From IMG/VR virus record IMGVR_UViG_3300033120_000148, positions 11,764 to 75,763 of that record: DNA of 64,000 nucleotides; one strand, given 5' to 3'. This document shows positions 142-33,170 of this stretch, piece by piece; position 1 is the stretch's first letter, and every line of letters starts with the position of its first letter. Source of the DNA: a virus. Taxonomy: Duplodnaviria; Heunggongvirae; Uroviricota; Caudoviricetes; Crassvirales. The notes beneath the pieces were generated by a model. The model saw only the letters and a list, made by a program, of their open reading frames with translations. It was not told where the DNA came from and made no database searches. The position numbers were made by a program, and so were the translations under genes.

Positions 142-852
142 ATGAGTAAATATAAAGAACTAGTATATATGGTTCTAGATGAATTGAAACTAATTTCTGA
201 TGATTCTACCTTTACAGAAGATCACATTATATTTCAACTTAATAAATATAGAACAATGTTATTAAAGTAGAAGTATAGTGATGTAAAAAAATAGATACCA
301 GAAAGCAATTATTAGTCTATAGTTTTACCATTATAGGATATAGTACAAGTAGATTCATCTATACATTACTATTAGTCTACTAATAAAGTTCCTATAATGA
401 TACCTATAGGACAAGCAAGAGTAACTCCAATAGATTATTATATAGGAGAATTAACTCTTATATCTAAAGAAAGAATGAGATATGTTGGTTACAATAAGTA
501 TCTAAAGAATATAGCATATTGTTCTATATCACCAGATTATTATCTTATGTTCTACTAGTCTCCTTTAGCTGCTACACCTTTATCTAGAGTCAGGCTTACA
601 GCAGTATTTGAAGATGCTGATAAAGCAGCTTTACTTGCATATGGTAATACTGAAACTAATTTAATGGAATTAGATTTTCCAATTGAGGAAGGTATGATTC
701 CTTAGTTAATACAATTTGTAGTAAAAGAAATTGCAGGACCTTCTTGGAAACCTAAGGATGATAATAATAATAGTAGTGATGATTTATCAGAACTAGCTTC
801 ATTTGTAGCTAGAAATACTAAATCAGGATTACAGCAATAGATGGAAAGTTAA
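142..852 (+). CDS. Hypothetical late/virion protein, 236 aa, translated with TAG as sense (~12 in-frame TAG), TAA stop
   Basis: Single frame from ATG 142 to TAA 850-852 has no TAA/TGA but many TAG. The ORF track reports nothing here because of the TAGs. Confidence 0.55.
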
Positions 853-1382
853 TGGAAGATATTAAACAGTTTAAAGCCAGAGTATTAAAGATACATGATA
901 CTAGAACACATAAAGTAAATAATTCTTTAGGTGTATATGATTCCTATAAATGGCTAAGAAAGAATAAATGGTTTGATATAGGGCATGTAGATGAACATAC
1001 TTATTATACTATAATAAGAGAAATTAATAAACTTATGGCACAAGAATTAAGTAATGGTAACCCTATTACATTACCTCATAGACTTGGTAAACTAGAATTA
1101 AGAAAGAACTCTGCTAAAATATATAGAAAGGATGGTAAAATAAAGACTAATTTACCTATAGATTGGAATAGAACTTTACAACTGTGGCATGATGATGAGA
1201 CAGCTTGTAATGACAAAGTTTTAGTAAGACAAGAATCTAAGGAAATATTTAGAGTTATTTATAATAGATCTAGAGCAAGTTTTACTAATCAATGCTTCTA
1301 TACATTTAATATTAATAGGGATATTAAGAAGAGTTTAAAAAATAATATTAAAACTGGGAGGATGGATGCCTTCATATTATAA
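852..1382 (+). CDS. Hypothetical protein, 176 aa, with no TAG codons although embedded in the recoded block
   Basis: Intact ORF in the track. Its start overlaps the previous stop (TAATG) and its stop overlaps the next start (TAATGG). Uses CAA/CAG for Gln. Confidence 0.6.
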   Translation: MEDIKQFKARVLKIHDTRTHKVNNSLGVYDSYKWLRKNKWFDIGHVDEHTYYTIIREINKLMAQELSNGNPITLPHRLGKLELRKNSAKIYRKDGKIKTNLPIDWNRTLQLWHDDETACNDKVLVRQESKEIFRVIYNRSRASFTNQCFYTFNINRDIKKSLKNNIKTGRMDAFIL

Positions 1383-2089
1383 TGGAATCAAATTATATAT
1401 CAATAAAACAAATATTAGATAATGTTCTAGTGCATCCTATGTTATAGGATGTTACATTAGAAAGAGCTGTTTCCTATGCTATAGATTTTATGAGGATTGT
1501 AGGTATGCCTACAATATTCATGGAGAAAGTTACAACACTAGAATTAGTGGATAACAGAGTACTATTACCTGATGATTTCTTTGAAGTTATATAGATTAAA
1601 ATGACTTCAAATAAAAGGGCTGAGGTATTTAGAAGCTCTGGAGATAGTTTTCATATGGACACACCTACAGATGAGACATTGCAATCTCATGCTTTATAGG
1701 AACTAACCTATAAGATATAGGGAGGAGTTCTAATAGCTTCTGTATCTACAGGAACTATATCTTTAGCTTATAGAGCCATCCCTTTAGATACAGATGGTTA
1801 TCCATTAGTAATAGATAATAGTCCATTTACTAGAGCTTTAGAATTATATATTAAAAAGTAGGCTTTTACTATCTTATTTGACATGAATAAGATACCTATG
1901 AATGTGTATTAGAACACAGTTAGAGAATATGCTTTTGCAGTAGCTTAGGCTTCCTCTTCTCTTACAAGACTTAATATAGACCAAATGCAAAGCTTTACTA
2001 ATATGTGGAATACTCTAATACCTAGAGTAACTGAGCATCATAATAGTTTTAAAACATTAGGTTCTCAGGAAAAATTAAAAATGTAGTAA
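1382..2089 (+). CDS. Hypothetical late/virion protein, 235 aa, TAG read as sense, TAA stop
   Basis: Frame starting at ATG 1382 runs to TAA 2087-2089 with ~12 in-frame TAG and no TAA/TGA. Confidence 0.55.
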
Positions 2090-2090
2090 T

Positions 2091-5000
2091 ATGGTAGTAA
2101 AACATTCTTCACATTTAATTAAGGGAATGCAGCAAGATTCCAGTCCTTCTATTGCTAATAGTGAGTATGCAATAGATGCTAGAAATATTAGAATTACAGC
2201 AAGAGAGAATACTTCTCTATTTTCTGTAGTAAATGAGAAAGGTAATATTGAAATTACTTTAAAGACAATTAATGGTACTGATGCTACTTTGATAGGTGAT
2301 TATGTAGGACATGCAGTCTTAAATAATTACTTAGTAGTATTTATGCACTCATCAGACTATGACTATATCTATAGACTTGAAAAGAAAATAGATTATAAGC
2401 TTGTAGAATTCTTAGAAGTAGTAACTCTATACCAAGGAAATTTAGGTTTAGATGTCAGTCATCCTTTGGAAACTTTGCCTATATTTGAAAATGAAGACAT
2501 CTAGAAAATATACTGGACTGATGGACTAAATCAACCTAGAGTTATTAATATAGTTGCTACTTAGAATGTAAGAGCTAAATATACTTCTACATCATTTGAT
2601 TTTGTTAGAAAACTTAATCTATAGGAGAAGGTAACAATTAATAGAAATGTAGTAACAAATGGTTTATTTTCTCCTGGGGTACTATAGTATGTATTTACAT
2701 ACTATAATAAATATGCTTAGGAAAGTAATATATTCTATACTTCTCCTCAGTATTATACCTCATTTAATAATAGAGGAGCATCTCCTGAAGATAGTATAAG
2801 TAACAGCTTTGATATAAATATCTCAAACATGGATTATAACTTTGATTATGTTAGAGTTTATTCTATTATGAGAACTTCTATTGATGCTACACCTACTTGT
2901 AAAAGAGTTATAGATATAGCTTTACCTACATCTTAGGAATATTCAATAAAATAGTCTACAGAAACACTATAGACTACAGATAAACTGGTGTGGTATGATG
3001 GAAAAAGCACATATTCTACAGATACAAATCCTACTGGAAGTTTTACAATATTAAGTAGTTATGCCTATATATAGCATGTAACTTCTTCTGGATATACTAT
3101 GATATATAATAGTTTTAATGAGGGTGATGTTATTAATCTATCATTTACTAATGGTGATAATAATACTAAAGTATATACAGTAGATATTACTAGACCCACA
3201 TCAATTACTTATACAGATACAGGTACTCAAGGATCTACTATAGATCCTACTGAACTACTATATGTAGGAGGTGAAGAGGTTATATTTGGTACAATGAACT
3301 AGAAAGATAATACACTATTTCTAGGTGATATAACTCTAAAAAGAAAATTATTAAGTACTTAGTTAAGGACTTTAGTAGCTTCTCATCTAGTGAATTTTAA
3401 TTATGCTCTAGATGATATAGGTAGTTATAAACGTCTAAATCTACCTTCAGCATCTGGTTATTATCCATATGATAATTAGCTTAAGTATAACTCAAGTCAG
3501 ATAAAGACATTTAAATATCTTGAGTACTATAGATTTGGTATCCAAGCTTAGCATTATACAGGTAAATGGTCAGAACCTATTTGGGTAGATGATGAACAGA
3601 ATTTAGTTCCTATTAGTAATGACCCTACATAGGGAAGTAACAGCTTTAATACTGTAAAATTAGTTACAGCTTCTACTAACTTTGGTAGTGATATTATACA
3701 AATGCTACTTGACTAGGGGTATGTTAAAATTAGACCTGTAGTAGTATATCCTACTATTAATGATAGAGAAGTAATATGCCAAGGTGTATTATGCCCTACA
3801 GTATATAATGTTAAAGACAGACATGAGAATGCTCCATTTGCTTAGTCTTCATGGTTTATAAGACCTAATGCTCCATTTGATTTAAAGAAATCATTTGATA
3901 TGAAAGCAGATGGAACTAATATATCTGATATGCACTTATTAGGGGATTATACTACTACAGATATAGTATCTAGAGGTGGAATATTATCAGCAGGTAGATC
4001 TACAATAAAAGATGTACAGCCCGATGGCTCTATAAAATATATACCTATTGATGTATCTAACTTTGGGGATTGGGCTGAATTTAGGCATAATTATCCAATA
4101 CCAGATAACTTATCTAGACAGGCAGAAATTCAATCAATTTCTTCTCCACCAAGTAATCCTTACACTCAATATAATGAAGATAATTTAATAAATGATTATA
4201 TTGATTCTAATAAGTAGAATTATTATGTTGACTAGTCTATTTTAACATTCCACTCTCCTGATATAGAATTTGATTCAGAAGTAAGAAGTTTAGATTCTTC
4301 TAATTTAAAACTTAGAATAGTTGGAGTTGTTCCATTAACTTCATTTTATAGTGATATTGAGTTAAATACTTCAACTCCTGTATTACAATTTAAGGGTACA
4401 TCTGACTTGCCAAATGGTTTCTATAAAGAAAGAATGAGTGCTTAGAATCTATTCAATACACCAGGCTCTCTTGGAATATCTACTAAGTTAAAATCAGAAT
4501 CTAATTTTGGATGGAGAGGATGCTAGGCAGCACCAATGTGGTTTGATGAAGTATATGATTCTACTTACAATACTAATACTGATCATAAGGTTACAGGATT
4601 TGTAGTATATCCATGGCATAGAAGTGGATCTATGAATAATCAAAAGAATGGAGAAGGTGATAGTAAATATAGATACTCATTACTTCAAAAGAAATAGATG
4701 TCGACTATAAGATTTTCTTATAACACTTTCTATTTAAGTATTAATAATTTATGGAATGCTTATATAAAGGATTCTACTACTAATACTGGTATATCAGGAG
4801 TAAATATATTTGACTCTGATTAGATCTCAGTTACTAAGATTAAAGCTTAGGAAAACTCAGGATTATAGGATATAAATTACTATGGAAATATTGATAAGTT
4901 ACTAATAGGAAATTACTCTGGCAGCTCAAATGCTGGTTATACTATAGCTATAGGTGGGTCTATGAATGATTCCTCTACTAATATTCATAGTATATTCTCT

Positions 5001-6863
5001 GCTCCTAAATATAAATCTTGCTCCTCTTTAGCTAATGCTGGTAATATATCTGGTACAGACCCTGTTAGAATTAAATATAAATCTACTGCTCATGCAGTTC
5101 TAGCATTAAATTATGCTAAAGATGGGAGTCAGAGAGTTTTACCAACAACTTATGATAGTAGCTATTACTATGGAACTAATGGATAGACTTGGGCTATAAA
5201 TAATGTAGGAGGTAATTTCTCAGATGTAACAGGTACTGAATCTAATGTAACAGGTTATGATGATAGGGGGGAGCCTACATATGAGGATCAAACAATTTCT
5301 TATAATGTTTGGGGATTCTGGGATAAGAAACATATTACAAAATCTGTAAGTCAAGATACTCTTAATGTGGGTAAAATAGGTGATAGTTCTGAAGGTACTA
5401 TTCAATATGGATGGTTATGGTTAGGAGAACTTTATAATGACTCTGTAACTAATAGATTTGGTGGTAAAACTGAGGAAGCTTTTGAAAATAATAAATGGTT
5501 ACCTTGTGGTAGCCCTATTAATTTAAAGTAGGCTAATGGTACTACTAAAACTTCAGTAAATGTTATATGGTCTGAGGGTGATACTTACTATTAGAGATAT
5601 GATAATCTAAAGACATTCCCATTTACAAATGATGATATAAATCAGGTAACAGATATAGTATCATTTATGGTAGAAACAAGAGTTAATCTTGATGGTAGAT
5701 ATGATAGAAATAGAGGACAAACAAGTAATATAACTATGAGTCCTACTAATTTTAACTTAATGAATAATGTATATAGTTAGAAGAATAATTTCTTTACTTA
5801 TAATACCGTTAATCCTAACAAGTTAAATCTAGATAATTTCCATAATTCTATCACATGGACTAAGTCTAAGACTATGGGGGATCTAATAGATACTTGGACT
5901 AATATTACAATGGCTTCTACTTTAGATTTAGATGGTGATAAAGGTATAGTAAGATCACTTAAAAAGTTTAATAATGAAATATATGCTTTTTAGGATAGAG
6001 GAATAAGTAATATTCTATTTAATTCTAGAACTCAATTATCTTCAACAGATGGAATACCAATTGAAATAGCTAATAGTGGAAAAGTTGATGGTAAAAGATA
6101 TATAGCTACTAATCTAGGTTGTGCTAATAAATGGTCTATAAATGAGACTTCTAATGGTATATATTTTGCTGACAAAGAGAATAATTCAGTTTATTTATTT
6201 GATGGTAAATTTAGTAGTTTAACAGATAAATTTGGTTTTAGAAAGTGGCTTGGTGATTAGACTCCATACTTTAATAATTTTAGAACTTACTGTGATAAGA
6301 ATAATTCAGATATTTACTTTAATGTAAATAATGGTGACTCATCATCATAGTGTTTATGCTTCTCTGAATTCTTAAATCAGTTTACTTCTTTTATGTCATA
6401 TACAGATGTAGACTCTATGTTTAATCTGGGAAGTGACTTCTATGCTATTAAAAATAATAAGATATGGCATAACTTTGAAGGTGAATATAATATGTTCTTT
6501 GGTACATTCTAGCCTTTTAGTCTAACAGTTATATCTAATTAGGATGAAAATCTAGATAAGATATATAATAATATTGAATTTAGATCTGATACTTTTAATG
6601 GGCAAGTTTCTACTAATAATACTTTTGATACACTGGATGTATGGAATGAATATCAACATGGTACTATGAGTTTAATAAATACTAAAGATAAACCTTCTTC
6701 ACTTAAAAGAAAGTTTAGAGTATGGAGAACATTAATACCTAGAGATAATATAAATAGTAGGGATAGAATTAGAGGTACTTGGGCTTATGTAAAGTTAGCT
6801 ATGAATAATCCTAATACTTTTAGAACTCAATTATATGACTTAAATGTTCATTTCTTTGAATAA
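2091..6863 (+). CDS. Giant virion/tail-type structural protein, ~1590 aa, TAG recoded as sense
   Basis: All five track fragments (2091, 3099, 3900, 4962, 6666) are in the same frame. Codon-by-codon reading finds only TAG between them, no TAA/TGA, ending at TAA 6861-6863. A 4.7-kb frame free of TAA/TGA in ~30% GC DNA is non-random. Confidence 0.6.
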
Positions 6864-6887
6864 TGTAGTATAATTATATATAATATA

Positions 6888-6937
6888 ATGGGTAGATTAA
6901 GTTAAATCTTAGTCTACCCATAATTATTTTAATTAAG
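6888..6937 (+). terminator. Rho-independent terminator: 14-bp stem (ATGGGTAGATTAAG / CTTAGTCTACCCAT, one U.G), 6-nt loop, then AATTATTTTAATT
   Basis: Perfect inverted repeat immediately after the TAA of the 1590-aa gene, followed by the promoter motif at 6958-6978. Confidence 0.6.
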
Positions 6938-6957
6938 TTATTGTATATATCAATAAT

Positions 6958-6978
6958 TTTATTTATCTTTGCAACAAA
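6958..6978 (+). promoter_or_regulatory. Bacteroidota-type promoter, TATCTTTG -7 element inside TTTTATTTATCTTTGCAACAA
   Basis: Second copy of the motif seen at 101-121. Sits ~19 nt upstream of ATG 6990. Confidence 0.5.
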
Positions 6979-6989
6979 ATTTATATAGT

Positions 6990-9416
6990 ATGACTAAGAA
7001 ACAAGTTATAAGAAAGTCTAATAGAACACTAAATATATTTGCAGACGGAGGAACTACTGATAAAAAACCTACTGACAGTAAAGGATCTATTATAAATTCA
7101 TTATCAGGAGTTGGAGGGTCACTAGTAGGATCTATTGGTGGTGGTCTAGTTGGTGGTGGATTATAGTCTGGAGCAGGCTCTGCAATAAGTGGAATTGGAT
7201 CTACTGTTGGTGGAGCAGTTGGAGCAGTTAATCCATTACTGGGTGGTATAATAACAGCAGGCTCTGGTATTGTAGGAGGTTTAACAAATAGGATGTTTGG
7301 TTCTAAATTAAATAATTAGAAAATATCAGATATTTAGAGTTAGAATAATACTTTAAATACTACTATGCTTGATAGTAGTAATAATGATACTGTAGCTAGT
7401 TAGTGGGCATCATAGGGTTTTGGTGATAACTTTACTAGATCTGATATAGGAAAAGATGGCTGGTTTAGTAATAAAGCTGAAAATAAATATAAAGAATTAT
7501 AGCTTCAATAGAATGTTGCTAGAAATAGAATGATGGAGTCATATAATAATGCTGCAGATAATGCTGATGAGACTTAGGACTAGTTAGCTTTAACTAACTT
7601 CGCTGCTTATGGTGGACCACTTAATATATATGCTGAAGGTGGTAATCTACATTAGAAAGCTGTTACATATAAAAATAGGTTAGAAGCTGTAAGAGGACCT
7701 ATGAATGATGACTATGACTATACAGGATACTATATGAAGTATCCTAAAAAAGCAGAGGCAATGATTAAAGGAGATAAAAAAGCTCATTTTACTGATGAAT
7801 TTAAATTACCAAATCATGCTACTTTCTCTGATGAATCTATATACTCTAAACAAAGAGGTGGTGGAACTTAGGAAGGTGGACACTGGGGTTATTCAAATGG
7901 ACATGATACATTTAATGTATCTCAAGATAACTTTAATAATAATCCTAATCTTGGTTAGTATTTTATGCAGAATGAACCTAGTAGTATTCCTATATATAAT
8001 GGGGGAATATTATTACCACAAGTTACTATTTAGGGTAATAGATTTGCAGAAGGTGGTGAACTAGATGATTTAAATAATCATGGAGCTACTTGGTCTAATG
8101 GAGTTACATATATTAATAATGGTGGAACTCATGAAGAAAACCCTAATGAAGGTGTTTAGGTTGGAGTAGATTCTTAGGGAAATCCTAATCTAGTAGAAGA
8201 AGGTGAGGTAAAATGGAATAACTATATATTTAGTAATAGAATATTTGCTAATAAAAAAGGCTTAAAAGCTAGTAATTTGCCTACATCTTTAGATAATAAT
8301 TCATTTGCTTCAGCAGCAGAGAAAATTAGTAAACAATCAAAAGAGATGCCTAATGACCCTATTAGTAAAAGATCATTAAATGTATCTCTCTCAAGATTAT
8401 AGTAGTTACAAGAAAGTATGAGACAAAAGCAAAATAAAACATAGAATAGTAATCCTAATAAATTTGCAATTGGAGGTCCAACTGGAGATACATTTGAAGC
8501 CCCATTCAAAATGAGAGCTGATGGTACTTATCCTATTAATGATACTTATAGTTTACCTATTTAGAACCCAACTAAAGATTCAACTAAACGTGGTAAATTA
8601 TCATTATCTGATACTGCAATATCAGATATGTATAATGATAATTTAGTTAAATCAGCTACAAATACTAAGCTTGGTTTTAAGGTACCAGATATGGTAACTA
8701 CAACTAAGAAACCTCCTAGTGATCCTAATAATTTTGACAAGGGATTACCATTTTTAAGATATGCCCCAGCTATAGGTTCTGGTGTAGCAGCTTTCACTGA
8801 TATGATGGGATGGACTAATAAACCAGACTACAGTGGAATAAATAAAATAAGTGACACTGTAAATCACATGTCACCTGCTTCATATAGACCCATAGGTGAC
8901 TATATGACATATAAGCCACTAGATAGAAATTACTATTAGAATATGCTTGACTCATAGGCTGAATCTACAAAGAGAGGTATAGTTGAATAGTCAGGTGGAA
9001 ATAGAGCTACAGCTATAGCAGGTTTACTTGCAGCAGATTATAATGCTTAGAGTAAAGTTGGTGAACTAGCTAGATAGGCAGAAGAGTATAATCAAGGACT
9101 AAAGGAAAGGGTTAAATCATTTAATAGAGGTACAAACTAGTATAATTCAGACTAGGCTCTAAAAGTAGATGAACTTAATATGAATCTTGATAGACTTAAA
9201 TATGAATCTTCTGTACAACAAGCACAAATGAGATAGGAAGCTTTAGCTAGAGCTACTGCTGCTAGAACTGCTAATATTTCTAACTTCTTTAATAACTTAG
9301 GTGGTATTGGAAGAGAGGATACACAGAAGAATTGGATTAGATCAAACCCTGGTTTCCTATATGATATTAGTGATAACGGTATATCTTATAAAAATAAAAA
9401 GAAAGGAGGTAATTAA
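6990..9416 (+). CDS. Virion structural protein, ~808 aa, Gly-rich N-terminus (GGSLVGSIGGGLVGGGLQSGAGSAISGIGSTVGGAVGAV), TAG recoded
   Basis: Frame 0 from ATG 6990 (the track's 6969 start is a TTG) to TAA 9414-9416. Contains track fragments 6969 and 8628. Many in-frame TAG, no TAA/TGA. Confidence 0.6.
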
Positions 9417-9417
9417 T

Positions 9418-11205
9418 ATGTCAGATTATAGTTTAGTTGTAAATTCACAATTTTAGCCATTTTCATATTAGGAAATGTTAGCTCCTGTGTTACAAGCAAC
9501 CTAGGCACAGCAAGATATAGAGAATCAGTATAGTATGCTTGATTCTGAGGCTAATACTATTTAGTAGAGAGCTTTAACAGATAGTAATTCTGAATGGGCT
9601 AAGAAATATACTACTTATACAAAATAGTTAGAGGACTCTGCTGCAGATTTAGCAGCAAATGGTTTAACTCCATCATCTAGGAGTTCTTTATTAAAATTAA
9701 AAAGAGACTATTCAAGCAATGTAAATCCTGCTTTAATGGCTATCCAAAGATAGGCTGAAATAGCAAGAACTTAGTAGGCTAAAAATGGTGAGGGAGTAAG
9801 AATGGTTTATGGAGCAATGCCTTCCATTGACTAGTTGATAGCTGATCCTAATTTAGATAGAGTTAGTTATAGTGGTAAGGACATTGAAGCTTCTGCTGCA
9901 AATTCTGCTGCTGCTGCTTCTGCAAGACATGTAATAGATAACTTTAAGAAAGACCCAGCTAATGCTGGTTGGATGAAACATATTAAAGAAACTGGATATA
10001 GTTCACAAGCATTTAATGCCTTACTTAATGAAGCTAAGAATTCAAGTGATCCTAATGTAAATATATTAGCATAGATTACAAATTAGGTTAAGCAACAATT
10101 TGGTAACTTTGAAGGAGTATCTGATGTAGATAAACATAGACTAGAAGGTGAAATACTATCAGGTTTATTCAAAGGTTCTGTATATAGAAATGAGGATAAC
10201 TATTAGACAGATCCTATCTATATGGCTAATTTACAATCTAGTCTTGAGGAAGGTAGATAGATTAGAGCTGAGAATAGAGCACTTGCTAGAGAGAACCCAG
10301 GTAATACATCTACTAATGGTGTAGCACCTAATCCTATTAATATGTATTCTCCTAAAGAGAAGAAGGAACAAGCTGATGCAATATCTAAATTTAAGCAGTA
10401 TTTCTATAGAGATAACTCTGGTTAGGTTAAAATGACTTATAAAGGACTACAAGAATATAGAAGAAATGCAGCTATAGTACCAACTGTAGCAGGGTCTGGT
10501 GGAGGAACAGCAGCTTTAATGAATGCAGAAACAGCTATGGGTAGAAAGAGAGGTTATCAACCTACTTAGTTCAAAGTATTTATGGATAAACTTGGTGCTA
10601 ATCATTATATAGATAGTAAGAAATTTAAAGGTGGTAAGGGTTGGCAACCAGGCAATGTAGGTAATCTTTGGTCTAGATATAGTTCTGCAAATAATGCAGG
10701 TAAATATGATGCTACTAAAGCTACTCAATATGAGTATAAAATTGCTAAAGATCAATAGGATCTTACAAAGGATAATATAGTTATGGCTTTAAAGAATTAG
10801 CCAGCATATGAAGTAGCATTTAATGGTACTACATTAGCTAGAACTCATAAAGTTCTTTCATATAGTGATCTATATACAAATGGTAGAGTAGTAGCTACAA
10901 GATTGAGTCCTTATGGTAATACATTTGTAGTCATTGATAAATCAGGAAAGGTTAGTGAATATGAAATGCCTCCTGGAATTAATCCTACTAATGAAGGTAA
11001 CAGAGATAAATTGCTAAAACAATTACCTACAATGTAGTAGGTATTAAAAACTGGCAAAGCTGGTAATCATATATTAAAGCCTAAGGAAAAGGAAGACTTA
11101 CAAAGTCTATATAATTAGAATATATAGAATGCTTACATGTATAACTCTTAGCTCAATGTAACTAATACTACAGAACCTTAGAAGGCTTATCCTTATTCTT
11201 ATTAA
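9418..11205 (+). CDS. Hypothetical virion protein, ~595 aa, TAG recoded
   Basis: ATG overlaps the previous stop (TAATATG). Frame 1 contains track fragment 9835 and ends at a triple TAA (11203-11211). Confidence 0.55.
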
Positions 11206-11213
11206 TAATAAAT

Positions 11214-14200
11214 ATGGGAACATTAAAATAGGTAAAATAGAAACCAATAGATATATTGAAAACTGGTCCTGCCAGTTTTAGAGAACTACAATAGGCTAAC
11301 CAGTCAAACTTTAGTCCTTAGTATTAGGCATTTGTAAATGACTTAAAGATTAAGTCTCAGCCAACATCATTATTTGATGCTGCTGCTTAGGCTTAGCAGG
11401 ATGTTGCTTCTCCATTAAATAATAGTGAAACACCATGGGGTAAAAGTAAATTTGATGCTACTTCAGCTAATGATAACACATTTAATAATTTAGGTGATAT
11501 TAGAGCTGAAAATGAACCTTGGTATGATAAAATAGGTGCAGGTATTTCTAAGGGAGCAGTACTAGCAGGTACTACTTTCTTAGATGGTACTCTTGGTTTA
11601 TTATATGGAGCAGGAACTGCAATTTCTCAAGGAAGAATATCAGGTATTTGGGATAATGATTTCTCAAGGTCTATGCAAAGTATTAATAATTATATGGAGA
11701 AAGAACTTCCAAATTATTATACTTAGAAAGAACAATAGGCAGCTTGGTATAGTCCAGATAATATATTTACAGCTAACTTCCTAGGAGATAAATTTATAAA
11801 GAACTTAGGATTTAGTATTGGTGCTTTTTATTCTGGTGGTGTTACAGCCTCTGGATTAAAATTAAGTCAATTACCATAGTTAATTGAAAAAGTAACAGGT
11901 ATAACAAATGCAGCTAGTCATGTAACTTCTGCTGTAGGTGCAACTATATCTGCTGTTAATGAAGGTAGAATAGAAGCCCTTAATAATTCAGGAGATTGGT
12001 ATAAGGCTTAGAAGACTATACTTGATGACAAATATAAATCAAGAATAGAGGCTATTTAGTAGTAGTATCAAGCTAATGCTAACAGACAAATGATTAAAAC
12101 TGCTGAGGGTTCTTATGTAGATCCTGCTTATTTACAATATAAGCAAGATATAGCTAGAGAATAGAATTCATATCAAGGTACTCTTAGAAAGATGAATGAA
12201 GACAGGTTACATATGGGCAATGTTGATTTATTAATGAACTTACCTATATTAACTGCTTCTAATCTTATATAGTTTGGTAAGATGTATGCTAATGGATTTA
12301 AGACTGCTAGAAAGACTACAAATATTACTGGAGGAATTGGTAATTATGCAGCTAATACATCTAATGCGAGAGCTGCTCTTGCATTCACTAAAAGTGCTTT
12401 ATCAGAAGGTAATGAGGAAGTACTTCAATAGGCTGCTAGTAATATATCTGGAGATTATTATGCTACAGATGTAAATAACTATTATAAAGCTAAAACTGAT
12501 CCTAAGGCAGCTAAAGATACTCTAAGTTGGACAAAAGCTTTTGCTTAGGGAATGAATGAAACATTAAATGATAACTCATCTTGGGAATAGTTCCTTATAG
12601 GTAGTATAACAGGTGCACTTGGTATGCCTAGATTTAGGTCTATTAAGAATGCAGAAGGTCATTTTCAGTTTCCAGTAACTTTAGAAGGAGGTGCTTATAA
12701 TCAGTTTAAAGATTATAGAGAGGAAGCAGCTAGAACTCAAGGAGTAGTAGATTATTTAAATAACAGAGTTAACTCCCCTGATTTTAAGAATTACTATCAA
12801 GGACTTGTTAGACATAATAAGTTCTAGAATGATATGAATTAGGCAGTAGATAATAATGATGATTTTAATTTCAAGAATGCTGAGCATTCTCAATTAGTTT
12901 CTGATGTTTCCATGTTTGCAAAAGCTGGAAAATTAGAAGATCTAAATACATTAGTGAAAGCAGCTTATGATACATCTGATGATAATTTAAAATCTATTAC
13001 TGAGAACACTACAACTAAAACTCCTAATGGTATATCTGGTCCATTTGTAGACTCTAGTGGTAATCCTATGTATGCTACTGAAGCAGGTAAATAGGAGATG
13101 ATTAATAAGCTTACTAAGTCTAAAGATGAGATAATGAAGGAAGTAAATAACTATAGTAAGATAAGAGACTAGATTAATGCAAGTACTAATGAAGCTCTTA
13201 CTGATGATTAGCTTGATGAATTAACTTGGATGACTTCTTAGATAGGTAACTTTGAAGACAGATCTACTGAGATGGCTAAGGATATTAAAACTTCTATATC
13301 TAAAGTTATAGGTAATCTTTCTTCTAAATTATCTTTGGCTACACAAATTAGACATCAAGAAGGTAAGGACCATGCAGATTTAACACCTGTTTACAGACAA
13401 GCAGATAAAGCAGTTATCAACTTAACTAAGACTATGGATAGTTTAAACTCACTACAAAGTCGAAGTGATGATTCTATGCTAAGTGCTTTAACTGATAACC
13501 CAGAAGTTGTAAATTACTTAAATAAGCAAATAGATAATCTAGATGAATCTGTACTAGATAAAGAATCTAAGAAAGATATAAATTAGAAATTGAATGATAT
13601 TCTTAAACTTGGTAAAGCTATAGATGTATTTAGAAGTAAACTAGATGAATACACCAATAACCCTGCTAAATAGTAGGAAGACCATGCTAAGATTGATACT
13701 GATAAAATAAAGGAAGAAGAGGCAAATAAGAAAGCATCTATAAAAGATAGATTAAGAAATGCTAAAGATTTATAGGAGTATAGATCTATATTAAGTGATG
13801 AGGAAGATGACACAGATGATGCTGTAAAAGACTTACAAAATGAGAACCATAACTTAACTATAACTAATAAAAAGATTAATAGTAGGTATAGAAGCTTGCA
13901 AAATGCTATACTTAATAATAAAGATATAGATGATGAAACTAAGTAGGATGCTCTTGATATGTTGGATAATCATTATAATAAAGCCAAATCACTTGGTGAA
14001 TTCAGAGATCCAAACTCAGCAAGTCTAACTGATGAAGACTACTTCAATCATGATACAGGATTTAATGAAGGGTCATCTAATGATAGATTTTAGAAAGCTA
14101 AATATGCAATTGATAAAGCTTTTGAAAAGGTAGTTAAGGATAATAACTTCATGAGGTCTCTAGCTTAGTAGCAGCCATTACAAGATATAGTTAGGCAGAC

Positions 14201-17200
14201 TACTGAAAAAAATGGAGTTAAAATAACTAAATATGGAAGAAGAAAAGGAGATAAAATAATTAATGGTACTGGTCCTAGCATAAGTAAAGATGATATTCCT
14301 GAATCAGAATTAGAAACTATTGAAGGCCTACTTGATGATATGGGAGATACAGCTAAGTTAGAACTGATTGAATTAAGAGAAAGGGATGGAAAATATTCTG
14401 GAACTGTAAGACTTAATGGGCAGATAAGTGGTGCTCCTATTAATGAAAAATTTGAATTTCTATTTGATAAAAATCCAGATAAACTGAGGGGTGTAGATAA
14501 AGAAGAAACAGGAGATAGTAAAACAGCAACAATACCAACAGAAGATAATTCAAATGAATTACCCAGGACAATTAATGAAATACCTGTAGGTGATTATTCA
14601 ATAGATGAAGTTAAAGAAGAGAATAAAAACTCTGATACTAATGATAAGAAACTTACATCTAAAGATAATTCTTAGTACTATATTCCTGCTGTACCAGAGT
14701 TGGATATTGAAGCTAGTAGAAATGGTGATTATAGAAACTTTGATGAAGTTAAAAAGGAGTAGAATCCTAAACTAGATTTCTCTAAAATATATAATTATTT
14801 ATCTAGTAATAATGCTTTTTCATATGTAAATGAAGGTAATCTTAAAGAAGGTGATAGATTAGGTTTTATGATAGATCCTAACTTTAGTGATACTACTATA
14901 TTTATTATTGATAAGAAAAATAATTAGATAGTAGGTTCTCTATTTGAGTCTGATTATAAACTAAAACAGTATGAAGGCTTGGAGCAATTAGTTAACAAGA
15001 TATATCAAGAATATAAAAATAGAGAAGATAGAAATTCTAAATTTATAGCTACTCCTACTACAAGAGTGTCTTAGATGCTTGTAGGTAGAATTCCATATAT
15101 TGCAGATGAAAAGAATCTAAAGAATGTAATAGAAGAAGGTAAAGCTAATAGTACTATTTTTGGCATAGTTAAAAATGGGTCTATTACTACTAATGAAGCT
15201 ATTCCTAGTGATTAGATTATGATGCACTCTGGATTAGATGGTAAAGAAGGTAGATTATATATGTTACTATCTAATGCTGCAGGTAAATATTCACCTGTAG
15301 CTGTGAGAGTAAAGCACTTTAATGCTGATGAATTTAATCTAGATGATGCTACTGTAGCAGAAACACCAATGGGTAAGAGTATTTCTAAAGCTATAAATGA
15401 TTTAGCTAGATCCTCATCTTAGGAAGACATAACTAATGCAATGGTTAATCTAATATAGGATATTCATCTGCAAGATGAGATAATTACTCCTATGGAGAAT
15501 AACAAAGGTAGAGGTATTCTTATAAGTTCTAAGGTCAAGGGAGCAGATGGTAAATATGAAATGGTTGAAATAGATGGTAAATAGTATATTAAAGAAACTA
15601 GAATACCTATTTACTTTACTAAAGAGGTTAAACCAGTAGAAAAGAATGGACTAAGTCTAGAATTTTCATCATTTGAAGCGGCTGATATTCCTAGTAGTAG
15701 TGTAGAGATGAAGCCTGTTTAGGATATAGTAAAGGAAATAACAAATGCTTTATATTCATTGAATAAACCTTTACAAGTAAGTACTGGAAGAATTAATTAG
15801 TCTGGATATAATGCTAGAATAATTAACTCAAATATACTTTCATCAAATATTAGTTCTACTAAAATTAAAGGAAGTTTCTTTACAACAGATTACTTTGATA
15901 AATCAGGAAATCTACATGCTGCTATAACAGTAGCAAATAATAGACCTTCAGTAGGAAGAAAAATTGAAACTGTTGTTGGTGGAAAAGAGAGTGCTATTCC
16001 AGGAACTCCTGTAAATCTTAATAATATATAGTACTATGTTGATTTATCTACTAAGGAAATAAGAGATAAATTCAATAATAAAGTTACTACTAATTAGGAT
16101 TTACTATTTAATCTAGCTTGGGTAAGAAATAACTATGGTAGATTAAAGAGTACTGGTGCTATTAAAAATAATAAAGTTTTATTGCCTGATGGTAGGGCAC
16201 TAGATATTAGTAAATAGAAGATATTAAGTGGAAAAGAGTATGATAAATTTATAGATTCATTAGATGCTGTAAAAGAGAGTACAGAAGCTAATTACTAGGA
16301 TGGATTAAAGGCTGTAGAGCAAATGCAAGAAAACTAGAAATTAGTTGATAGTCAGACCTATTCTATATTGGAAGATGATGGTAATTATTATGATTATACT
16401 CCTGCTGTAGATAAAGCACAATCTAGAGATACTATTTTAGACAATGGTCTTCACACATTAATACTATAGTTTTTTAATTCATCTGAACCTATAGTTAAGC
16501 CTGATACTATGACTAAGAAAGCCTATTAGGCATTAATAGATTAGCTAAATAATATTAAAGAAGCTTTAGAAAATAGAGGTGAGAGATTTATATCTAATAA
16601 TATAACATTATTCTATAAGTATCCAAATGGAGATAGAATAGCTGCTAAGGTAGATATAATGACTATGGATAAAGATGGTAGATTTAGATTATATGCTGTT
16701 AGAAAATAGTCTTAGAATAAAGATGATATACAGAAGATAACTAAAGAATTATCTATTATGTCAAATCTATTTAGTTCTCAATATAACTTGCCTATTTATT
16801 CTATGGCTATAATACCTTTCTCTGTAAAAACAAGAGGAAATAAGGTATCTGAGACTAAATTAGAAAAGGGTATATCTATCAAATAGAATGCAGGTACTGA
16901 TACACCAGCTATAGGTAATATATAGAAAGCTAAATCTACATTACCAATATTTGAAAGTTCCTTAGAAACTCTAAAACCTATTAATGATGTTAATACTGAC
17001 AACAGATCATTAGATTCTGATACAATAGGTTATTTCTAGATTGAAGGTAAGTTACATACTGGTTATTTAATGCCTATAGGTAATATTGAAGGTAATGAGT
17101 TATATTTAACTAGAACTGCCAATATGACAAAAGGATTTAAAGACACTGTAGCTCATGCTGCAACTTATAATTATTTTGTAGTATTTCCTAATGGTGAAAC

Positions 17201-17717
17201 ATTTAATATTAAGAATAATAGCATTACAAAAGATCCTAAGGAAATGGCTAAAACAGCTATTAATCTTTTAAGTAAAAATCCTAATAGAGTAAAGGATATG
17301 TCTACTTCTGATACATTACTTTATAAAAAAGGTGAAGAGGTAACTTAGGAAGTTGAAAAACCTAAATTAACTACTGCTAATCTATTATAGAGTAGTAATA
17401 ATAAGTTAACAGCTTCTCAATAGACTGTATTAAAAGAGTAGGCTGTAGCTGATGTAGATGAAGAATTTGAAGATGATTTGGATCTAGATGATATTACTAA
17501 TATAGGTGATTCTATAATGAGTGGTCAAAAGGCTGATATTACAGATTCTAATAATAGTAAAGATGATAGTAAGATTGATGTAATTACAGATATAGATTAT
17601 GATTCACTATCAAATGATGCTAAAAAGTCACTGACTTCAAAAGGTTGGACAAAAGCAAAGTGGAATAAAGTATCTATTGCAGAGAAGTAGAAAGCTCTAA
17701 ATTGTCTAGGTTTTTAA
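11214..17717 (+). CDS. Giant virion/tail-type protein, ~2167 aa, TAG recoded (dozens of in-frame TAG)
   Basis: Track fragments 12624, 12912, 13272, 14340, 15219, 17070 and 17478 all share frame 0. Read through, they are joined only by TAG codons, ending at TAA 17715-17717. Confidence 0.6.
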
Positions 17718-17763
17718 TTTGTTTGGTCATATTTCTAAGACTGTTAGGAATAAATTTTTTATA

Positions 17764-17803
17764 GGGGAAGCAGAGTAATCTGTTTCTCCTATTTTTGTTT
17801 GTT
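17764..17803 (+). terminator. Rho-independent terminator for the plus-strand arm: 10-bp stem (GGGGAAGCAG/CTGTTTCTCC, two G.U), loop AGTAAT, then TATTTTTGTTTGTT
   Basis: Hairpin plus T-tract ~45 nt after the stop of the 2167-aa gene. Confidence 0.5.
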
Positions 17804-17810
17804 AGGAATT

Positions 17811-17841
17811 AAAAAAAATAAGGGAAGATTTCTCTTCCCTT
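17811..17841 (-). terminator. Rho-independent terminator for the minus-strand arm: perfect 8-bp stem AAGGGAAG/CTTCCCTT, then an A8 run (U-tract on minus strand)
   Basis: Lies between the stop of the 1350-aa gene (17878) and the plus-strand terminator, giving a convergent terminator pair. Confidence 0.55.
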
Positions 17842-17877
17842 ACATTTTAATAACTAAAAATTATGAAATATATTAAA

Positions 17878-20800
17878 TTACTGCTTGAAGAATGGTATAG
17901 CCAATTCTGGTGCAATACCTCTTGTTACAGTGTTTCTCATTGGAGCTAGAGGACTTCTCATTAAGTACTTATAAGCCTTATTATGACCTTTAAATACACC
18001 ACTTTGCATAATAGCATTTTCACCTCCAATAGCCTCATAGTTATAAGGATTTATAACATTAAGTAAATCTAATGTTGATTGAATTGTCTGTATAGCAGCA
18101 GCAGGAGATTTAACTAATTTAAGACCCTCATCTATCATAGGTTTTCCTGGCACTAATACACCAATTTCATTTTGCAATCTTCTTAATTGATACTCAGCCA
18201 TTTTACCTGCCCAAGTACTATTTTTAGTGTCCCAATCAATTAAGCCTAGAGCTGTTATTATCATTAAATAATGTCCTACTTCTACTATAGCTCTCTTAAT
18301 ATTAGCTTTCTCAGTATTAGTTAATTCACTCCAAGATGAACCAATATCAAATTGAGATTGTTTTAAGTCTTTAGCTAATTGCATCATAAATCTACCTGCA
18401 GTTTTATAATAACCTTCAGTCCATTCTTGTAGATCCATATTATAAGTAGCTTCTTGAAATCTTCTATTTAAAGATGGTTTAACCCATTTTCTAAACATTA
18501 TAGCCATTCTACCTACAGCAAATTGTTGCATTGCACTTCTATCTGCTTTATTATAAACACCGTGCATTCTCTCATTAATTGCAGTAGTTTTTCTACTAAA
18601 AGCTATAATATCATCTCTAGTAAATTCAGATCCATCTTCTTTAGTATAACCATCTTTTACCTGTAACTTAGCTCCTAATTTCTTATTATTAGGATCAGTA
18701 TAAACTACTTCCATAGCATCCCATAGAGAAACTAATTTACCTTCTGGTGATTTCATTTTATATCTATCAGCAAGAGCTAATGAAGTTCTATTTTGCATCC
18801 AATGCTCACCAGCATTATTCATCATAAATAAAGCTGAACTACCAAACATTCTAGTGAACCATGTTTTTCTATCATAGTTCAACTCTTTAATCTCTGTTTC
18901 ATATTCCTGCATTACATTGAATAATTCATCCCATAGAGCTAGTTTTCCTACTTTAACTCTATTACCTATCTCTGCTAGATACTCTGGTAAAGCACTACCA
19001 TAATTTCTATCAGCATGTAAAGTATTAGATTCATTATAATACTCACCTGCTAAAGATTCAATTCTCATCATTATAGTACCAGTAGCAACATTAGAAATAC
19101 CTGACAATATATTTAGAGCCAGAGTATTAACAGAAGTTAATCTGTTAAATGTATCTGCTGTTTTAGCTTTATCTATTTTTGAATCACCAAAAGTACCTTC
19201 ATCCGCTATATATCTACCATATACTTGCATATTAAAGAAACTATTAAGTCTCTTCATGAACTTTGTTTTATCTCCTGAAATAGTTATAGGTGATTCTACC
19301 TTAGTTCCAAATACCTTAAATTTTTCCTTTAATGTCTTTCCACCTGAGGTCTGCAAGATCTTTCTTTCTCTTAGTAAATCTCTTCCTAATTCAAGTGTAT
19401 CTAGTACCTTATTCATTTGATTATAGTCATTAGCCATAGCTGCATAAGCAGTTAATGTTGACACTGCATCTGTTGATATATCATTATTACTTTCACCATC
19501 TTTTAGATTAGTATAGTAAATAGGCAATGACATAACTTCATTACCACTGAAATCTTTAGTAGCATGCTTATAACCAAAATCAGTGTCATCTGCTCTTCTT
19601 ATAAAAGAATCCTTTATACTTTCCCATATTTGTTTAGTTCCCGACTTTAAATCATCAGAGCCTTTAACTCTTTCAACTAGGTCTTTTCTAATCTTAACAG
19701 TATTTAAGAGCTTGGCATTAGGTAAATATGAATCTAGTGACTTCTTTATTTTCATAAATTTATCATAGAATTCTCTTTGTGCTGGAGTTAATTTCTTAAA
19801 AGCTTCACTACTATAAATTGAAATCTTAGGTCTATGTACACCATCTACAGTTTCAAAGTTCTCAGTAAACCATTTCTTTCTTTCTCTTTTTGCTTCTCTT
19901 TCTTCATTAGGATCAGATATACTAGGATATTTATCATGTAATCCTTGAGTCATCTCTTCATATTTCTTTTTATATAAAGAGTAATCAATTTCTGATATAT
20001 ATTTTCCAGTTAAATTACCTTCAGCATCTCTTTCAAACATCCATTCAGTATCTTTAATACCTGACTGCTCTAATGTCATTATAGCAGATTGTAACTCTTT
20101 AACAACATCTATAGTATCTAATCTAGCATTCTCTTTACTCTTTTTAACAGCTTGATCCATTATTTTTAGCATATAGTCTGTACTATCAGCCATTGAATCC
20201 AGCCAAAGATTAAAGAAAGAAATATCCTTACCAGCTTCTTTAACTATATCTTCAGCAGTCATTGTAGTACCTTTATATTTTCCAAAGGGAATAGTAATAC
20301 CATCACCTACAAATGGCTTAATAAAGCTAACAAATAATGGCATTGCAACTTCATTATAAGTTATAGATAAATCATTTAGTACCCCAGTAGCTTCATCTAA
20401 AACTTCTTTTAGTTCACTAGAGTACTGATTATCATCAAATCTACTTTCCTCTAGTACTGATTTTCTTATATCTTTAAATATAGGTTCAAAGCTACTCATA
20501 TAATTTCTTATATCTCTTAGAACTCCTGCCTTTTCATTTATTGATTTACTATCATTAGTAGAAGATCCTGCTAACATACTATTTAATCTAGAGTTTACTT
20601 TCTGTAGTTCATCTAGAGCATTCTTAGTAAATTCTGAAATACCATTAATTATTTCATTATTCTCTATACTTTCAGTAATATTATTTATTACTTCTCTTTG
20701 ATGTAATGTAAACTTGGCATTATTATTTCTAGTACTATATATACTCAATCTTTTTAACTCATTAGATTGAATACTCTTTAATAGGTCTCTAGTTTTACCT

Positions 20801-30091: not shown

Positions 30092-30095
30092 ATTT

Positions 30096-30726: not shown

Positions 30727-30932
30727 ATTTTTTTTATTATTTCTTTTTATTGTTTTTCTTTATAACTAGTATCTTATCAGATATAAATAAGAGAAATGTT
30801 ATCCAAGACCCTACAGATATAAATAAAGCAAGTAGTAGATCACCTAAAGTTAATCCTACAACTTTTTCTTTATATATTGACTTAGCTATAATATAGTAGG
30901 AGCAAATTACTCCTACTATATATAGTATAAAC

Positions 30933-31259: not shown

Positions 31260-31296
31260 ATTTATTTTATTTAAATTATTTTACTATAAGAATATA

Positions 31297-32358: not shown

Positions 32359-32388
32359 AGTTTATTTTTTTAATGTACCCAATGATCA

Positions 32389-33099: not shown

Positions 33100-33170
33100 A
33101 ATCTTTTTTTTATTATCCTACAAAGGTACAATAATAAATTGATATATGCAAATAATTCCACTGAAATAGA

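What the first reader, a model, noticed from the sequence alone, without database searches (positions are those of the whole stretch)
142..17717. Strand- and module-specific TAG stop-codon reassignment: the late/virion arm is unreadable in standard code
In the plus-strand arm a single frame per gene contains TAG every ~25-40 codons but shows no TAA or TGA. With TAG read as sense, the 17 short ORF-track fragments collapse into 7 genes. Examples: 14087-14130 reads F-TAG-KAKYAIDKAFEK, and the frame 11214-17717 is open for 2167 codons. All seven genes terminate with TAA. The minus-strand arm (17.9-64 kb) consists of long standard-code ORFs that stop with TAA or TGA, so the reassignment is TAG-specific (code-15-like) and confined to late genes. 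By analogy with recoded crAss-like and Lak phages the TAG amino acid is presumably Gln; this was not shown here. No suppressor tRNA was found in the window, so one should lie elsewhere on the genome.
Basis: partly seen in the sequence, partly recalled or inferred. Interest (0 to 1): 0.9.

Follow-up and report, generated by a model that had tools for sequence, protein, structure and literature searches.

The report
Late-gene TAG-to-glutamine recoding, crAss-like phage

Summary
On the + strand, 142-17717 holds seven back-to-back genes with 162 in-frame TAG, no in-frame TAA or TGA in 5,807 codons, and TAA at every gene end. The - strand (17878-64000) holds 54 standard-code ORFs (97% coding) with no in-frame TAG.

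TAG is inferred to encode glutamine. 13 of 33 TAG columns in the muzzle protein are (near-)invariant Q in 120 homologs. Against cultured, standard-code crAss001, Q is the commonest partner (30 of 115 residue-aligned positions). In a 93-95% identical relative TAG swaps mainly with CAG. Counting TAG as Q restores ortholog-like Gln content.

The window is a crAss001-like phage (Steigviridae). The recoded block matches crAss001's late transcription module (gp40-gp47); the standard-code block matches its middle/early genes.

- Five of 54 minus-arm genes stop with TAG.
- One late gene (852-1382) has no TAG.
- Two virion RNA-polymerase proteins (gp49/gp50 homologs) are in standard code, so the boundary follows the transcription module, not virion membership.

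No suppressor tRNA lies in the window. In related phages, 4 of 4 with TAG in the terminase gene carry a tRNA(CUA) upstream of it, and 0 of 59 standard-code ones do.

This is a new member of a known kind (Yutin 2021; Borges 2021/22; Peters 2022). Interest is low.

The parts
142..852 (+). Late gene g1, tail ring protein (crAss001 gp40 homolog, Pfam CrAss_Ring_2). 236 aa, 8 in-frame TAG, TAA stop.
852..1382 (+). Late gene g2, homolog of crAss001 gp42 (annotated HU/IHF-like). 176 aa, 0 TAG, TAA stop. Its start and stop overlap the neighbouring genes as TAATG.
1382..2089 (+). Late gene g3, tail ring/tubular protein (gp43 homolog, Pfam CrAss_Ring_1). 235 aa, 8 TAG.
2091..6863 (+). Late gene g4, tail muzzle protein (gp44 homolog, Pfam crAss_MUZ and MUZ_C in its homologs). 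1590 aa, 33 TAG, 13 of them at (near-)invariant Gln columns.
6990..9416 (+). Late gene g5, cargo protein 1 (gp45 homolog). 808 aa, 28 TAG.
9418..11205 (+). Late gene g6, cargo protein 2 (gp46 homolog). 595 aa, 24 TAG.
11214..17717 (+). Late gene g7, virion RNA-polymerase-associated giant protein (gp47 homolog). 2167 aa, 61 TAG, TAA stop.
17761..17802 (+). Terminator-like hairpin plus T-run that closes the recoded late arm.
17808..17843 (-). Terminator-like hairpin plus T-run that closes the standard-code arm (convergent junction).
17878..21930 (-). m1, homolog of crAss001 gp49 (virion RNAP catalytic subunit, a middle gene in crAss001). 1350 aa, standard code, 0 TAG.
21948..29153 (-). m2, homolog of crAss001 gp50 (virion RNAP-associated). 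2401 aa, standard code, 0 TAG.
29258..64000 (-). Remainder of the standard-code arm: 52 ORFs for replication, nucleotide metabolism and small early genes, with no in-frame TAG.
55599..56105 (-). m38 (gp89 peptidoglycan-hydrolase homolog), which ends in TAG. The TAG falls within about two residues of the C-terminus of the crAss001 ortholog, so TAG is a genuine stop here. The other TAG-terminated minus-arm ORFs are 32389-33099, 48318-49016, 60530-60808 and 61939-62172.

Best explanation
The window is about two thirds of a crAss001-like (Steigviridae, Crassvirales) phage genome that uses two genetic codes. In the 3' part of its late transcription module, TAG is a sense codon for glutamine. This part covers the tail ring proteins, muzzle, cargo proteins 1 and 2, and the gp47-like RNA-polymerase-associated protein. 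TAG supplies 57% of all Gln codons there. The convergent middle/early module is written in the standard code and still uses TAG as a stop in 5 of 54 genes. That module covers the gp49- and gp50-like RNAP proteins, replication and nucleotide metabolism.

Shown here: the TAG-only pattern, the Gln assignment by homology and composition, the match of the code boundary to the arm junction, and the link between recoding and a phage tRNA(CUA) in relatives.

Inferred: the rest of this genome carries a tRNA(CUA), most likely at the head of the late arm upstream of the terminase gene. Host GlnRS charges it with Gln. As it accumulates during infection it switches the infected cell to code 15, so that late proteins can only be completed after the switch (the Borges et al. 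model). Because g7 needs 61 consecutive read-throughs, suppression must be very efficient. By my arithmetic, 96% per codon would give only about 8% full-length product. This implies heavy tRNA over-supply or neutralisation of release factor 1, and nothing in the window accounts for that.
For: TAG-only interruption: there are 162 TAG and no TAA/TGA in 5,807 codons, and shuffles never give more than 181 open codons against 2,183 observed.

Glutamine assignment:
- 13 of 33 TAG columns in g4 are Q in at least 103 of 120 homologs, against a 3% background Q.
- Against standard-code crAss001 DNA, 30 of 115 residue-aligned TAG positions are Q; the next commonest is E with 12.
- The BLOSUM62 sum is best for Q (137, against 77 for E).
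- Window TAG aligns to TAG 38, CAG 3 and single others in L094, and to TAG 23, CAA 15, CAG 2 of 99 in L009.
- With TAG read as Q, Gln content is 4.9%, against 4.65% in the crAss001 orthologs, and it matches gene by gene. Without TAG it would be 2.1%.

Module assignment: the genes are collinear with crAss001 gp40-gp47 | gp49-gp99. In crAss001 RNA-seq, gp47 and the structural genes are late, while gp49, gp50 and the replication genes are middle (PMC8375218).

Dual coding within one contig recurs in relatives L058, L059 and L087.

Suppressor link: among 63 Steigviridae terminase loci with at least 4 kb of upstream DNA, 4 of 4 with TAG inside TerL carry a tRNA(CUA) and 0 of 59 TAG-free ones do (Fisher p = 1.7e-6). 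In the three longer of these loci (L127, L153, L156) the tRNA is co-oriented with TerL and lies upstream of it; in L127 and L153 that is within a few kb of where the + strand late arm begins.

Published precedent: Yutin 2021 (PMC7886860), Borges et al. (10.1101/2021.08.26.457843) and Peters 2022 metaproteomics (PMC9523058).
Against: No tRNA of any kind is found in the 64 kb (ARAGORN; Rfam). I could not retrieve the rest of this genome, so the suppressor is inferred for this phage, not seen. The tRNA(CUA) genes in relatives are not clearly Gln-like by sequence similarity; the best matches to Gln, Arg, Trp and Leu tRNAs are all 68-74%. Only 26% of TAG positions align with Q in crAss001, and the rest are variable positions (E, K, R, A, D and others). 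Late timing is transferred from crAss001 by homology and was not measured here. No release factor, GlnRS or other code-change protein was found among the window's proteins, so how 61 UAGs in one ORF are read efficiently is unexplained.
Confidence: 0.88

Rival explanations
1. The recoding is real, but suppression does not come from a phage-encoded tRNA(CUA). It comes from a host amber suppressor, a highly divergent tRNA that tRNA finders miss, or a phage factor that inactivates release factor 1 so that near-cognate tRNA-Gln reads UAG.
For: No tRNA was found in 64 kb. Yutin 2021 and Borges et al. report that many recoded phages lack a detectable suppressor; only about 40% of TAG-recoded genomes had one. 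The need for very efficient read-through of 61 UAGs in g7 suggests more than a tRNA is involved (inference).
Against: The window lacks the region where crAss001-like phages keep their tRNA arrays, which is upstream of the terminase gene. In relatives the association between TAG-containing TerL and an upstream tRNA(CUA) is 4 of 4 against 0 of 59.
Confidence: 0.09
2. TAG encodes an amino acid other than Gln (Glu, Lys, Tyr, pyrrolysine) or is decoded ambiguously.
For: 74% of TAG positions align with residues other than Q in crAss001. ARAGORN labels CUA tRNAs as 'tRNA-Pyl'. The identity of the relatives' suppressor tRNAs could not be assigned from sequence.
Against: Every TAG column that is conserved across homologs, apart from a few that are E, I, Y, T, P or D, is Q: 13 near-invariant Q columns and none for K or any other single residue class at that rate. 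The BLOSUM sum for Q is nearly twice that of the runner-up. TAG interchanges with CAG and CAA in close relatives. Gln content matches orthologs only if TAG is Q. No Pyl-synthesis protein matched among the window proteins that were scanned or mapped to crAss001. Code 15 was verified by metaproteomics in other crAss-like phages (PMC9523058).
Confidence: 0.02
3. The + arm is not functional or not contiguous with the rest: decayed pseudogenes, sequencing error, or a chimeric assembly of a recoded phage and a standard-code phage.
For: Under the standard code the arm is unreadable.
Against: Only one of the three stop codons interrupts the frames. Proteins are full length and collinear with crAss001. 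TAG positions are conserved in independent assemblies from other samples, and an independent Logan contig is identical over 3,607 bp. The same gp47 | gp49 convergent junction, with a recoded gp47 homolog and an intact standard-code gp49 homolog, occurs on single contigs L058, L059 and L087.
Confidence: 0.01

Closest known systems
TAG-to-Gln recoded crAss-like phages of the Beta group / Steigviridae (Yutin et al. 2021, Nat Commun 12:1044, PMC7886860)
   Same: Same phage group. TAG is reassigned to Gln, and only in the part of the genome holding late genes. Suppressor tRNAs sit within phage tRNA arrays. Code changes occur at short phylogenetic distance: I also saw recoded L059 at about 80% nucleotide identity to cultured standard-code PhiCrAssBcn phages.
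   Different: This lineage is distant from every GenBank genome searched; the best is bajarodcaudo virus 1 at 48% aa over ring and muzzle proteins. It has no close relative in IMG/VR (at most 63% in the gp49 homolog). Its own suppressor tRNA was not seen.
Code-15 crAss-like phages (~105 kb) and other recoded gut phages, e.g. Lak, Garnet, Agate, Jade (Borges et al. 2021 preprint 10.1101/2021.08.26.457843; Nat Microbiol 2022 from my own knowledge)
   Same: Standard-code early and replication genes combined with recoded structural and late genes. The proposed temporal code switch is driven by a suppressor tRNA. Genome GC content is low (29% here).
   Different: Borges et al. found lysis genes and a tail tube gene to be the most TAG-biased. 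The lysis cassette is outside this window, so that could not be checked. No release factor 2 or aaRS was found here.
Bacteroides phage crAss001 (Kehishuvirus primarius), cultured, standard code
   Same: Gene order gp40-gp47 | gp49-gp99 and convergent arms. All seven + strand proteins and most minus-strand proteins have homologs at 26-82% identity over the aligned segments.
   Different: crAss001 has no in-frame TAG in these genes and no tRNA(CUA) among its 23 tRNAs.
Block-wise dual-coded phage genomes as modelled by Mgcod (bioRxiv 10.1101/2022.06.29.495998)
   Same: The genome divides into contiguous blocks, each with its own code. Here the switch falls exactly at the 160-bp convergent intergenic region 17718-17877.
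   Different: Nothing of substance; this window is a textbook case for such a tool.

Membership tests
Code-15 (TAG to Gln) late-module recoding in crAss-like phages | Conserved genes interrupted by in-frame TAG only; no TAA or TGA | tested here: met
   162 TAG and 0 TAA/TGA in 5,807 codons. The alternative reassignments (TGA or TAA as sense) do not open the frames.
Code-15 (TAG to Gln) late-module recoding in crAss-like phages | TAG positions correspond to Gln in standard-code homologs | tested here: met
   13 of 33 near-invariant Q columns. Q is the top partner in crAss001. TAG swaps with CAG/CAA in relatives. Gln composition is restored.
Code-15 (TAG to Gln) late-module recoding in crAss-like phages | Recoding limited to late genes; early and replication genes in standard code | tested here: met
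   There are 0 in-frame TAG in 14,845 minus-arm codons. Module classes are transferred from crAss001 RNA-seq by homology; expression timing in this phage was not measured.
Code-15 (TAG to Gln) late-module recoding in crAss-like phages | Phage-encoded suppressor tRNA with CUA anticodon | not testable with these tools
   None in the window. The rest of the genome could not be retrieved. In relatives, 4 of 4 recoded TerL loci have one against 0 of 59 standard-code loci.
Code-15 (TAG to Gln) late-module recoding in crAss-like phages | Peptide evidence of Gln at UAG | not testable with these tools
   Needs proteomics. It has been done for other crAss-like phages (PMC9523058).
Crassvirales, family Steigviridae (crAss001-like) | Signature structural genes and synteny (ring proteins, muzzle, cargo proteins, three giant RNAP-associated proteins, convergent arms) | tested here: met
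   Pfam CrAss_Ring_1/2/3_4, crAss_AuxCP, crAss_MUZ, crAss_CARG1 and CARGO2 occur on the identical or related contigs. tblastn to crAss001 matches gp40, gp42-47 and gp49-50. The nearest DNA hits are all Steigviridae. Family rank by formal ICTV criteria was not computed.
Pyrrolysine (UAG to Pyl) decoding | pylS/pylBCD genes, and UAG at positions not conserved as Gln | tested here: not met
   No such proteins matched among the window proteins that were scanned or mapped to crAss001; about 20 ORFs, nearly all under 140 aa, were not scanned against any family library. TAG columns are conserved as Gln.
Code 4 (TGA to Trp) recoding | In-frame TGA in conserved genes | tested here: not met
   There is no in-frame TGA in the late genes, and treating TGA as sense gives no ORF gain.

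The most novel reading that the evidence does not exclude
The code boundary cuts through the virion RNA-polymerase set. The gp49- and gp50-like proteins (3,751 codons, 0 TAG) can be made under the host code in mid-infection. The gp47-like protein (61 TAG) and the other ejected cargo proteins can only be completed after the code switch. Recoding might therefore act as a translational gate on assembly or packaging of the ejected polymerase complex. Reading 61 UAGs in one ORF would need near-complete loss of RF1 termination, which implies an undescribed phage anti-RF1 activity encoded outside (or unrecognised inside) this window.
Probability: 0.2. Interest if true: 0.55.

Novelty: new member of a known kind. 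Interest (0 to 1): 0.2.

Why it matters
For annotation, this contig must be called with table 15 on 1-17.8 kb and table 11 on the rest; otherwise seven structural and cargo genes break into about 19 fragments. Biologically it adds one more, fairly divergent, Steigviridae lineage to the list of dual-coded crAss-like phages. It gives a clean example in which the code switch coincides with a convergent terminator junction and separates the three virion RNAP-associated genes by expression class. It does not open a new question: TAG-to-Gln late-gene recoding, its suppressor tRNAs and the temporal-switch model are already published, and TAG-to-Gln decoding has been verified by metaproteomics in other crAss-like phages.

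Tried and rejected
Attempts to recover the rest of this genome and find its own suppressor tRNA all failed:
- Exact-protein look-ups of right-end genes either found nothing or returned only contigs of 4 kb or less.
- Exact DNA words were absent from IMG/VR and the JGI metagenomes.
- A protein search of IMG/VR with m51 found nothing.
- A cluster member of m51 on a 51.7-kb contig (L095) turned out to be a different, mosaic phage with 15 tRNAs and no CUA anticodon.

Assigning the relatives' tRNA(CUA) genes to an amino acid by similarity to other phage tRNAs was inconclusive.

I tested for a cis signal that distinguishes sense TAG from stop TAG. The nucleotides at +4 and -1 do not differ from those around CAA/CAG or around all codons (p = 0.29 and 0.34). 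TAG positions along the genes are uniform (KS p = 0.14). Backup stops after the five TAG-terminated early genes lie 0-9 codons downstream, which is not clearly different from other genes in this AT-rich genome.

I tested whether the TAG-free g2 is a conserved exception. It is not: its homolog in L009 has 7 TAG.

Pfam gave nothing for g7, m1 or m2. I considered and rejected the pseudogene, artefact, code 4, TAA-sense and pyrrolysine readings; see the rival explanations and membership tests.


Full report
OBSERVATION. The window has 29% G+C and two convergent arms, marked by a GC-skew sign change at about 17.8 kb. Under the bacterial code the + strand of 1-17.8 kb yields only 19 ORFs of at least 60 aa, the longest 176 aa. 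If TAG is read as sense, the same strand becomes seven abutting ORFs that all end in TAA. From the first ATG these are g1 142-852, g2 852-1382, g3 1382-2089, g4 2091-6863, g5 6990-9416, g6 9418-11205 and g7 11214-17717. They contain 162 in-frame TAG in 5,807 codons and no TAA or TGA, while their off-frames hold hundreds of each. The longest TAA/TGA-free run is 2,183 codons, against a maximum of 181 in 200 shuffles. Making TGA or TAA sense does nothing for these frames.

The minus strand from 17878 to 64000 carries 54 standard-code ORFs covering 97% of the sequence, with no in-frame TAG in 14,845 codons.

Four details in the finding are inexact. g2 has no TAG. The quoted example lies at 14088-14129. 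Five of the 54 minus-arm ORFs end in TAG, not TAA/TGA. The recoded block continues upstream of the window: a Logan contig (L002) identical over 3,607 bp adds 4.2 kb with more TAG-containing structural genes.

WHAT THE GENOME IS. DNA and protein searches place the window among crAss001-like phages (Crassvirales, Steigviridae). The only megablast hits are to their RNA-polymerase subunit gene at 73-76% identity. The best GenBank protein match over ring and muzzle proteins is 48% (bajarodcaudo virus 1). tblastn against crAss001 gives a collinear map:
- g1 = gp40 (ring 2)
- g2 = gp42
- g3 = gp43 (ring 1)
- g4 = gp44 (muzzle)
- g5 = gp45 (cargo 1)
- g6 = gp46 (cargo 2)
- g7 = gp47
- across the convergent junction, m1 = gp49 and m2 = gp50
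- then ThyX, a split DNA polymerase I, dUTPase, exonuclease, UDG, ThiF-like protein, primase, Sak4-like protein, helicase, HKD nuclease and others

PHROGs and Pfam agree for those proteins that hit anything. Two terminator-like hairpins, one per strand, sit in the 160-bp gap between g7 and m1.

WHICH AMINO ACID. Four independent lines point to glutamine.
(1) In an alignment of g4 (TAG masked as X) with 120 database homologs, 13 of the 33 TAG columns are Q in 103-120 sequences, against a background Q frequency of 3%. Some of the closest homologs are themselves recoded and carry an assumed Q. The result holds for the 111 more distant homologs (40% Q; BLOSUM62 sum 6,651 for Q against 3,907 for E).
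(2) Against the DNA of cultured, standard-code crAss001, 30 of 115 residue-aligned TAG positions are Q; the runner-up is E with 12. The BLOSUM sum is 137 for Q against 77 for E.
(3) At codon level, in a 93-95% identical relative (L094), window TAGs face TAG 38 times, CAG 3 times and four other codons once each, and the reciprocal comparison is similar. In a 55-68% identical relative (L009) they face TAG 23, CAA 15 and CAG 2 of 99.
(4) With TAG counted as Gln the seven proteins have 4.9% Gln, against 4.65% in their crAss001 orthologs, with gene-by-gene agreement (g5 5.3 vs 5.3%, g6 7.2 vs 7.7%, g7 4.8 vs 5.1%). Without TAG they would have 2.1%.

TAG supplies 57% of Gln codons in the late arm.

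WHERE THE BOUNDARY LIES AND WHAT IT FOLLOWS. In crAss001, strand-specific RNA-seq defines three classes. The late genes are the structural half, including gp47. The middle genes cover replication and also gp49 and gp50. A small early operon makes up the third class (PMC8375218). Mass spectrometry shows that gp45, gp46, gp47, gp49 and gp50 are all packaged cargo (PMC10172136).

In the window, the homologs of gp45-47 are recoded (113 TAG in total), while the homologs of gp49 and gp50 have none in 3,751 codons. The code boundary therefore follows the transcription module (arm), not whether a protein ends up in the virion.

TAG is still a working stop codon in the other arm. m38 ends with TAG within about two residues of where its crAss001 ortholog gp89 ends. 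The five TAG stops are followed by TAA/TGA 0-9 codons later, so late read-through would add only a few residues. I found no local sequence context that separates sense from stop TAGs. That fits a trans-acting, time-dependent switch rather than a cis signal.

HOW IT MOST LIKELY WORKS. No tRNA or Rfam family is detected in the window at default settings. This is expected: crAss001 keeps its 23 tRNAs upstream of the terminase gene, and that region lies outside this window. All attempts to fetch the missing third of this genome failed.

I therefore tested the link in relatives. Of 80 IMG/VR loci around Steigviridae terminase genes, four carry a tRNA with anticodon CUA:
- L127, 6223-6294
- L150, 1233-1305
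- L153, 4587-4659
- L156, 6532-6605

Among the 63 loci with at least 4 kb upstream of TerL, all 4 whose TerL contains in-frame TAG (5-12 each) have the tRNA(CUA), and none of the 59 TAG-free ones do (Fisher p = 1.7e-6). Two further recoded loci lack upstream sequence. In the three longer loci (L127, L153, L156) the tRNA is co-oriented with TerL and lies upstream of it; in L127 and L153 it is within a few kb of the start of the + strand late arm.

Among 80 loci around the gp49 homolog, only three relatives (L058, L059, L087) have a TAG-recoded gp47 homolog. In each, the gp49 and gp50 homologs on the same contig are intact under the standard code. L059 is about 80% identical in DNA to cultured standard-code PhiCrAssBcn phages, so the code changes over short distances, as published.

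The inference for this phage is that a tRNA(CUA) is encoded at the head of the late arm and charged with Gln by the host enzyme. Its accumulation allows completion of late proteins. This is the model of Borges et al. and Yutin et al..

The steps not shown here are the tRNA itself, its charging, and the timing. A further gap concerns efficiency: 61 UAGs in g7 demand very efficient suppression, since 0.96^61 is about 0.08 (my arithmetic). I found no release factor, GlnRS or similar protein among the window's proteins.

COMPARISON WITH WHAT IS KNOWN. Yutin et al. [quoted passage not shown] Usually this affected only the late-gene part of the genome, and many carried suppressor tRNAs. I equate their Beta group with the crAss001-like phages now classified as Steigviridae from my own knowledge; no tool result here shows it. 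Borges et al. generalised the pattern and proposed the temporal switch. Peters et al. 2022 confirmed code 15 in crAss-like phages by metaproteomics, and Mgcod was written to annotate exactly such block-wise dual-coded genomes. The window meets every sequence-level criterion of that class that can be tested here. The suppressor tRNA and peptide evidence are untestable with this window.

VERDICT. The finding is correct in observation and in its main interpretation, with the corrections above. It is a new, fairly divergent member of a well-described kind, and interest is low (0.2). The most novel reading still open is that recoding gates production of one of the three virion RNAP-associated proteins and the ejected cargo, and that such dense recoding implies an undescribed anti-RF1 function. 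I give that about 0.2 probability.

Noticed in passing
window 33171-36400 (- strand): The DNA polymerase I gene (crAss001 gp64 homolog) is split into 35015-36400 (N-terminal two thirds) and 33171-33977 (C-terminal third). Between the halves lie a LAGLIDADG homing-endonuclease ORF (34130-34933) and a group I intron core (Rfam RF00028, 33967-34180, 58.9 bits, above the gathering score of 50). The whole-window gathering scan missed the intron.
   Followed up: partly
window 51563-52637 (- strand): The Sak4-like gene (crAss001 gp84 homolog) is split into 52275-52637 and 51563-51910, in different frames, by a 364-bp ORF-less insertion (51911-52274). No Rfam family hits it even at E of 0.1 or below. 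The two halves are 76-82% identical to crAss001, far above the 26-59% of neighbouring genes. It may be an unrecognised intron.
   Followed up: partly
window 852-1382 (+): The gp42 homolog (annotated HU/IHF-like in crAss001) is the only gene in the recoded arm without TAG: 0 in 176 codons, with all 5 Gln codons being CAA/CAG (nominal P about 0.006-0.013). This is not conserved, as the homolog in relative L009 has 7 TAG.
   Followed up: yes
L002 1-1780; L009 935-3538: TAG density is uneven within the late arm. The major capsid protein has 0 TAG in its last 218 codons (L002) and 3 in 503 (L009). The next gene has 1 in 339. The ring, muzzle and cargo genes use TAG for 53-65% of their Gln codons. 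Highly expressed capsid genes may avoid TAG.
   Followed up: partly
window 32389, 48318, 55599, 60530, 61939 (stop codons, - strand): Five middle/early genes end in TAG, with backup stops close behind: TAG-TGA at 32386-32391 and TAG-TAG-ATA-TAA at 48309-48320. The genome therefore uses TAG both as a stop and as a sense codon.
   Followed up: yes
L058, L059 (IMG/VR 3300045988_029821 and _040743): These relatives have 26-27 TAG in the gp47 homolog, yet L059 is about 80% identical in DNA to cultured, standard-code PhiCrAssBcn/Kehishuvirus phages. This is a short-distance code change inside a cultivable genus.
   Followed up: partly
L095-L099 (ENA sewage contigs); window 62425-62997: A 190-aa early-arm protein of the window belongs to a 90%-identity cluster (representative 96% identical). 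A member of that cluster lies in a quite different phage context, next to 15 tRNA genes, RNase H and a glucosaminidase. This indicates mosaic exchange of small early genes.
   Followed up: partly
window 38295-40433 and 56541-58121 (- strand): The phage encodes an NrdD-type anaerobic ribonucleotide reductase with no tblastn match to crAss001, whose own annotated reductase is gp69. It also encodes a full-length GroEL-like chaperonin (PHROG E = 9e-121) with no crAss001 counterpart at that position.
   Followed up: no
L002 4243-4390 versus L009 6058-7003: The two genes with Pfam crAss_THA and crAss_THB that lie between AuxCP and ring 2 in L009 are absent from that position in this phage's contig (L002).
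   Followed up: no
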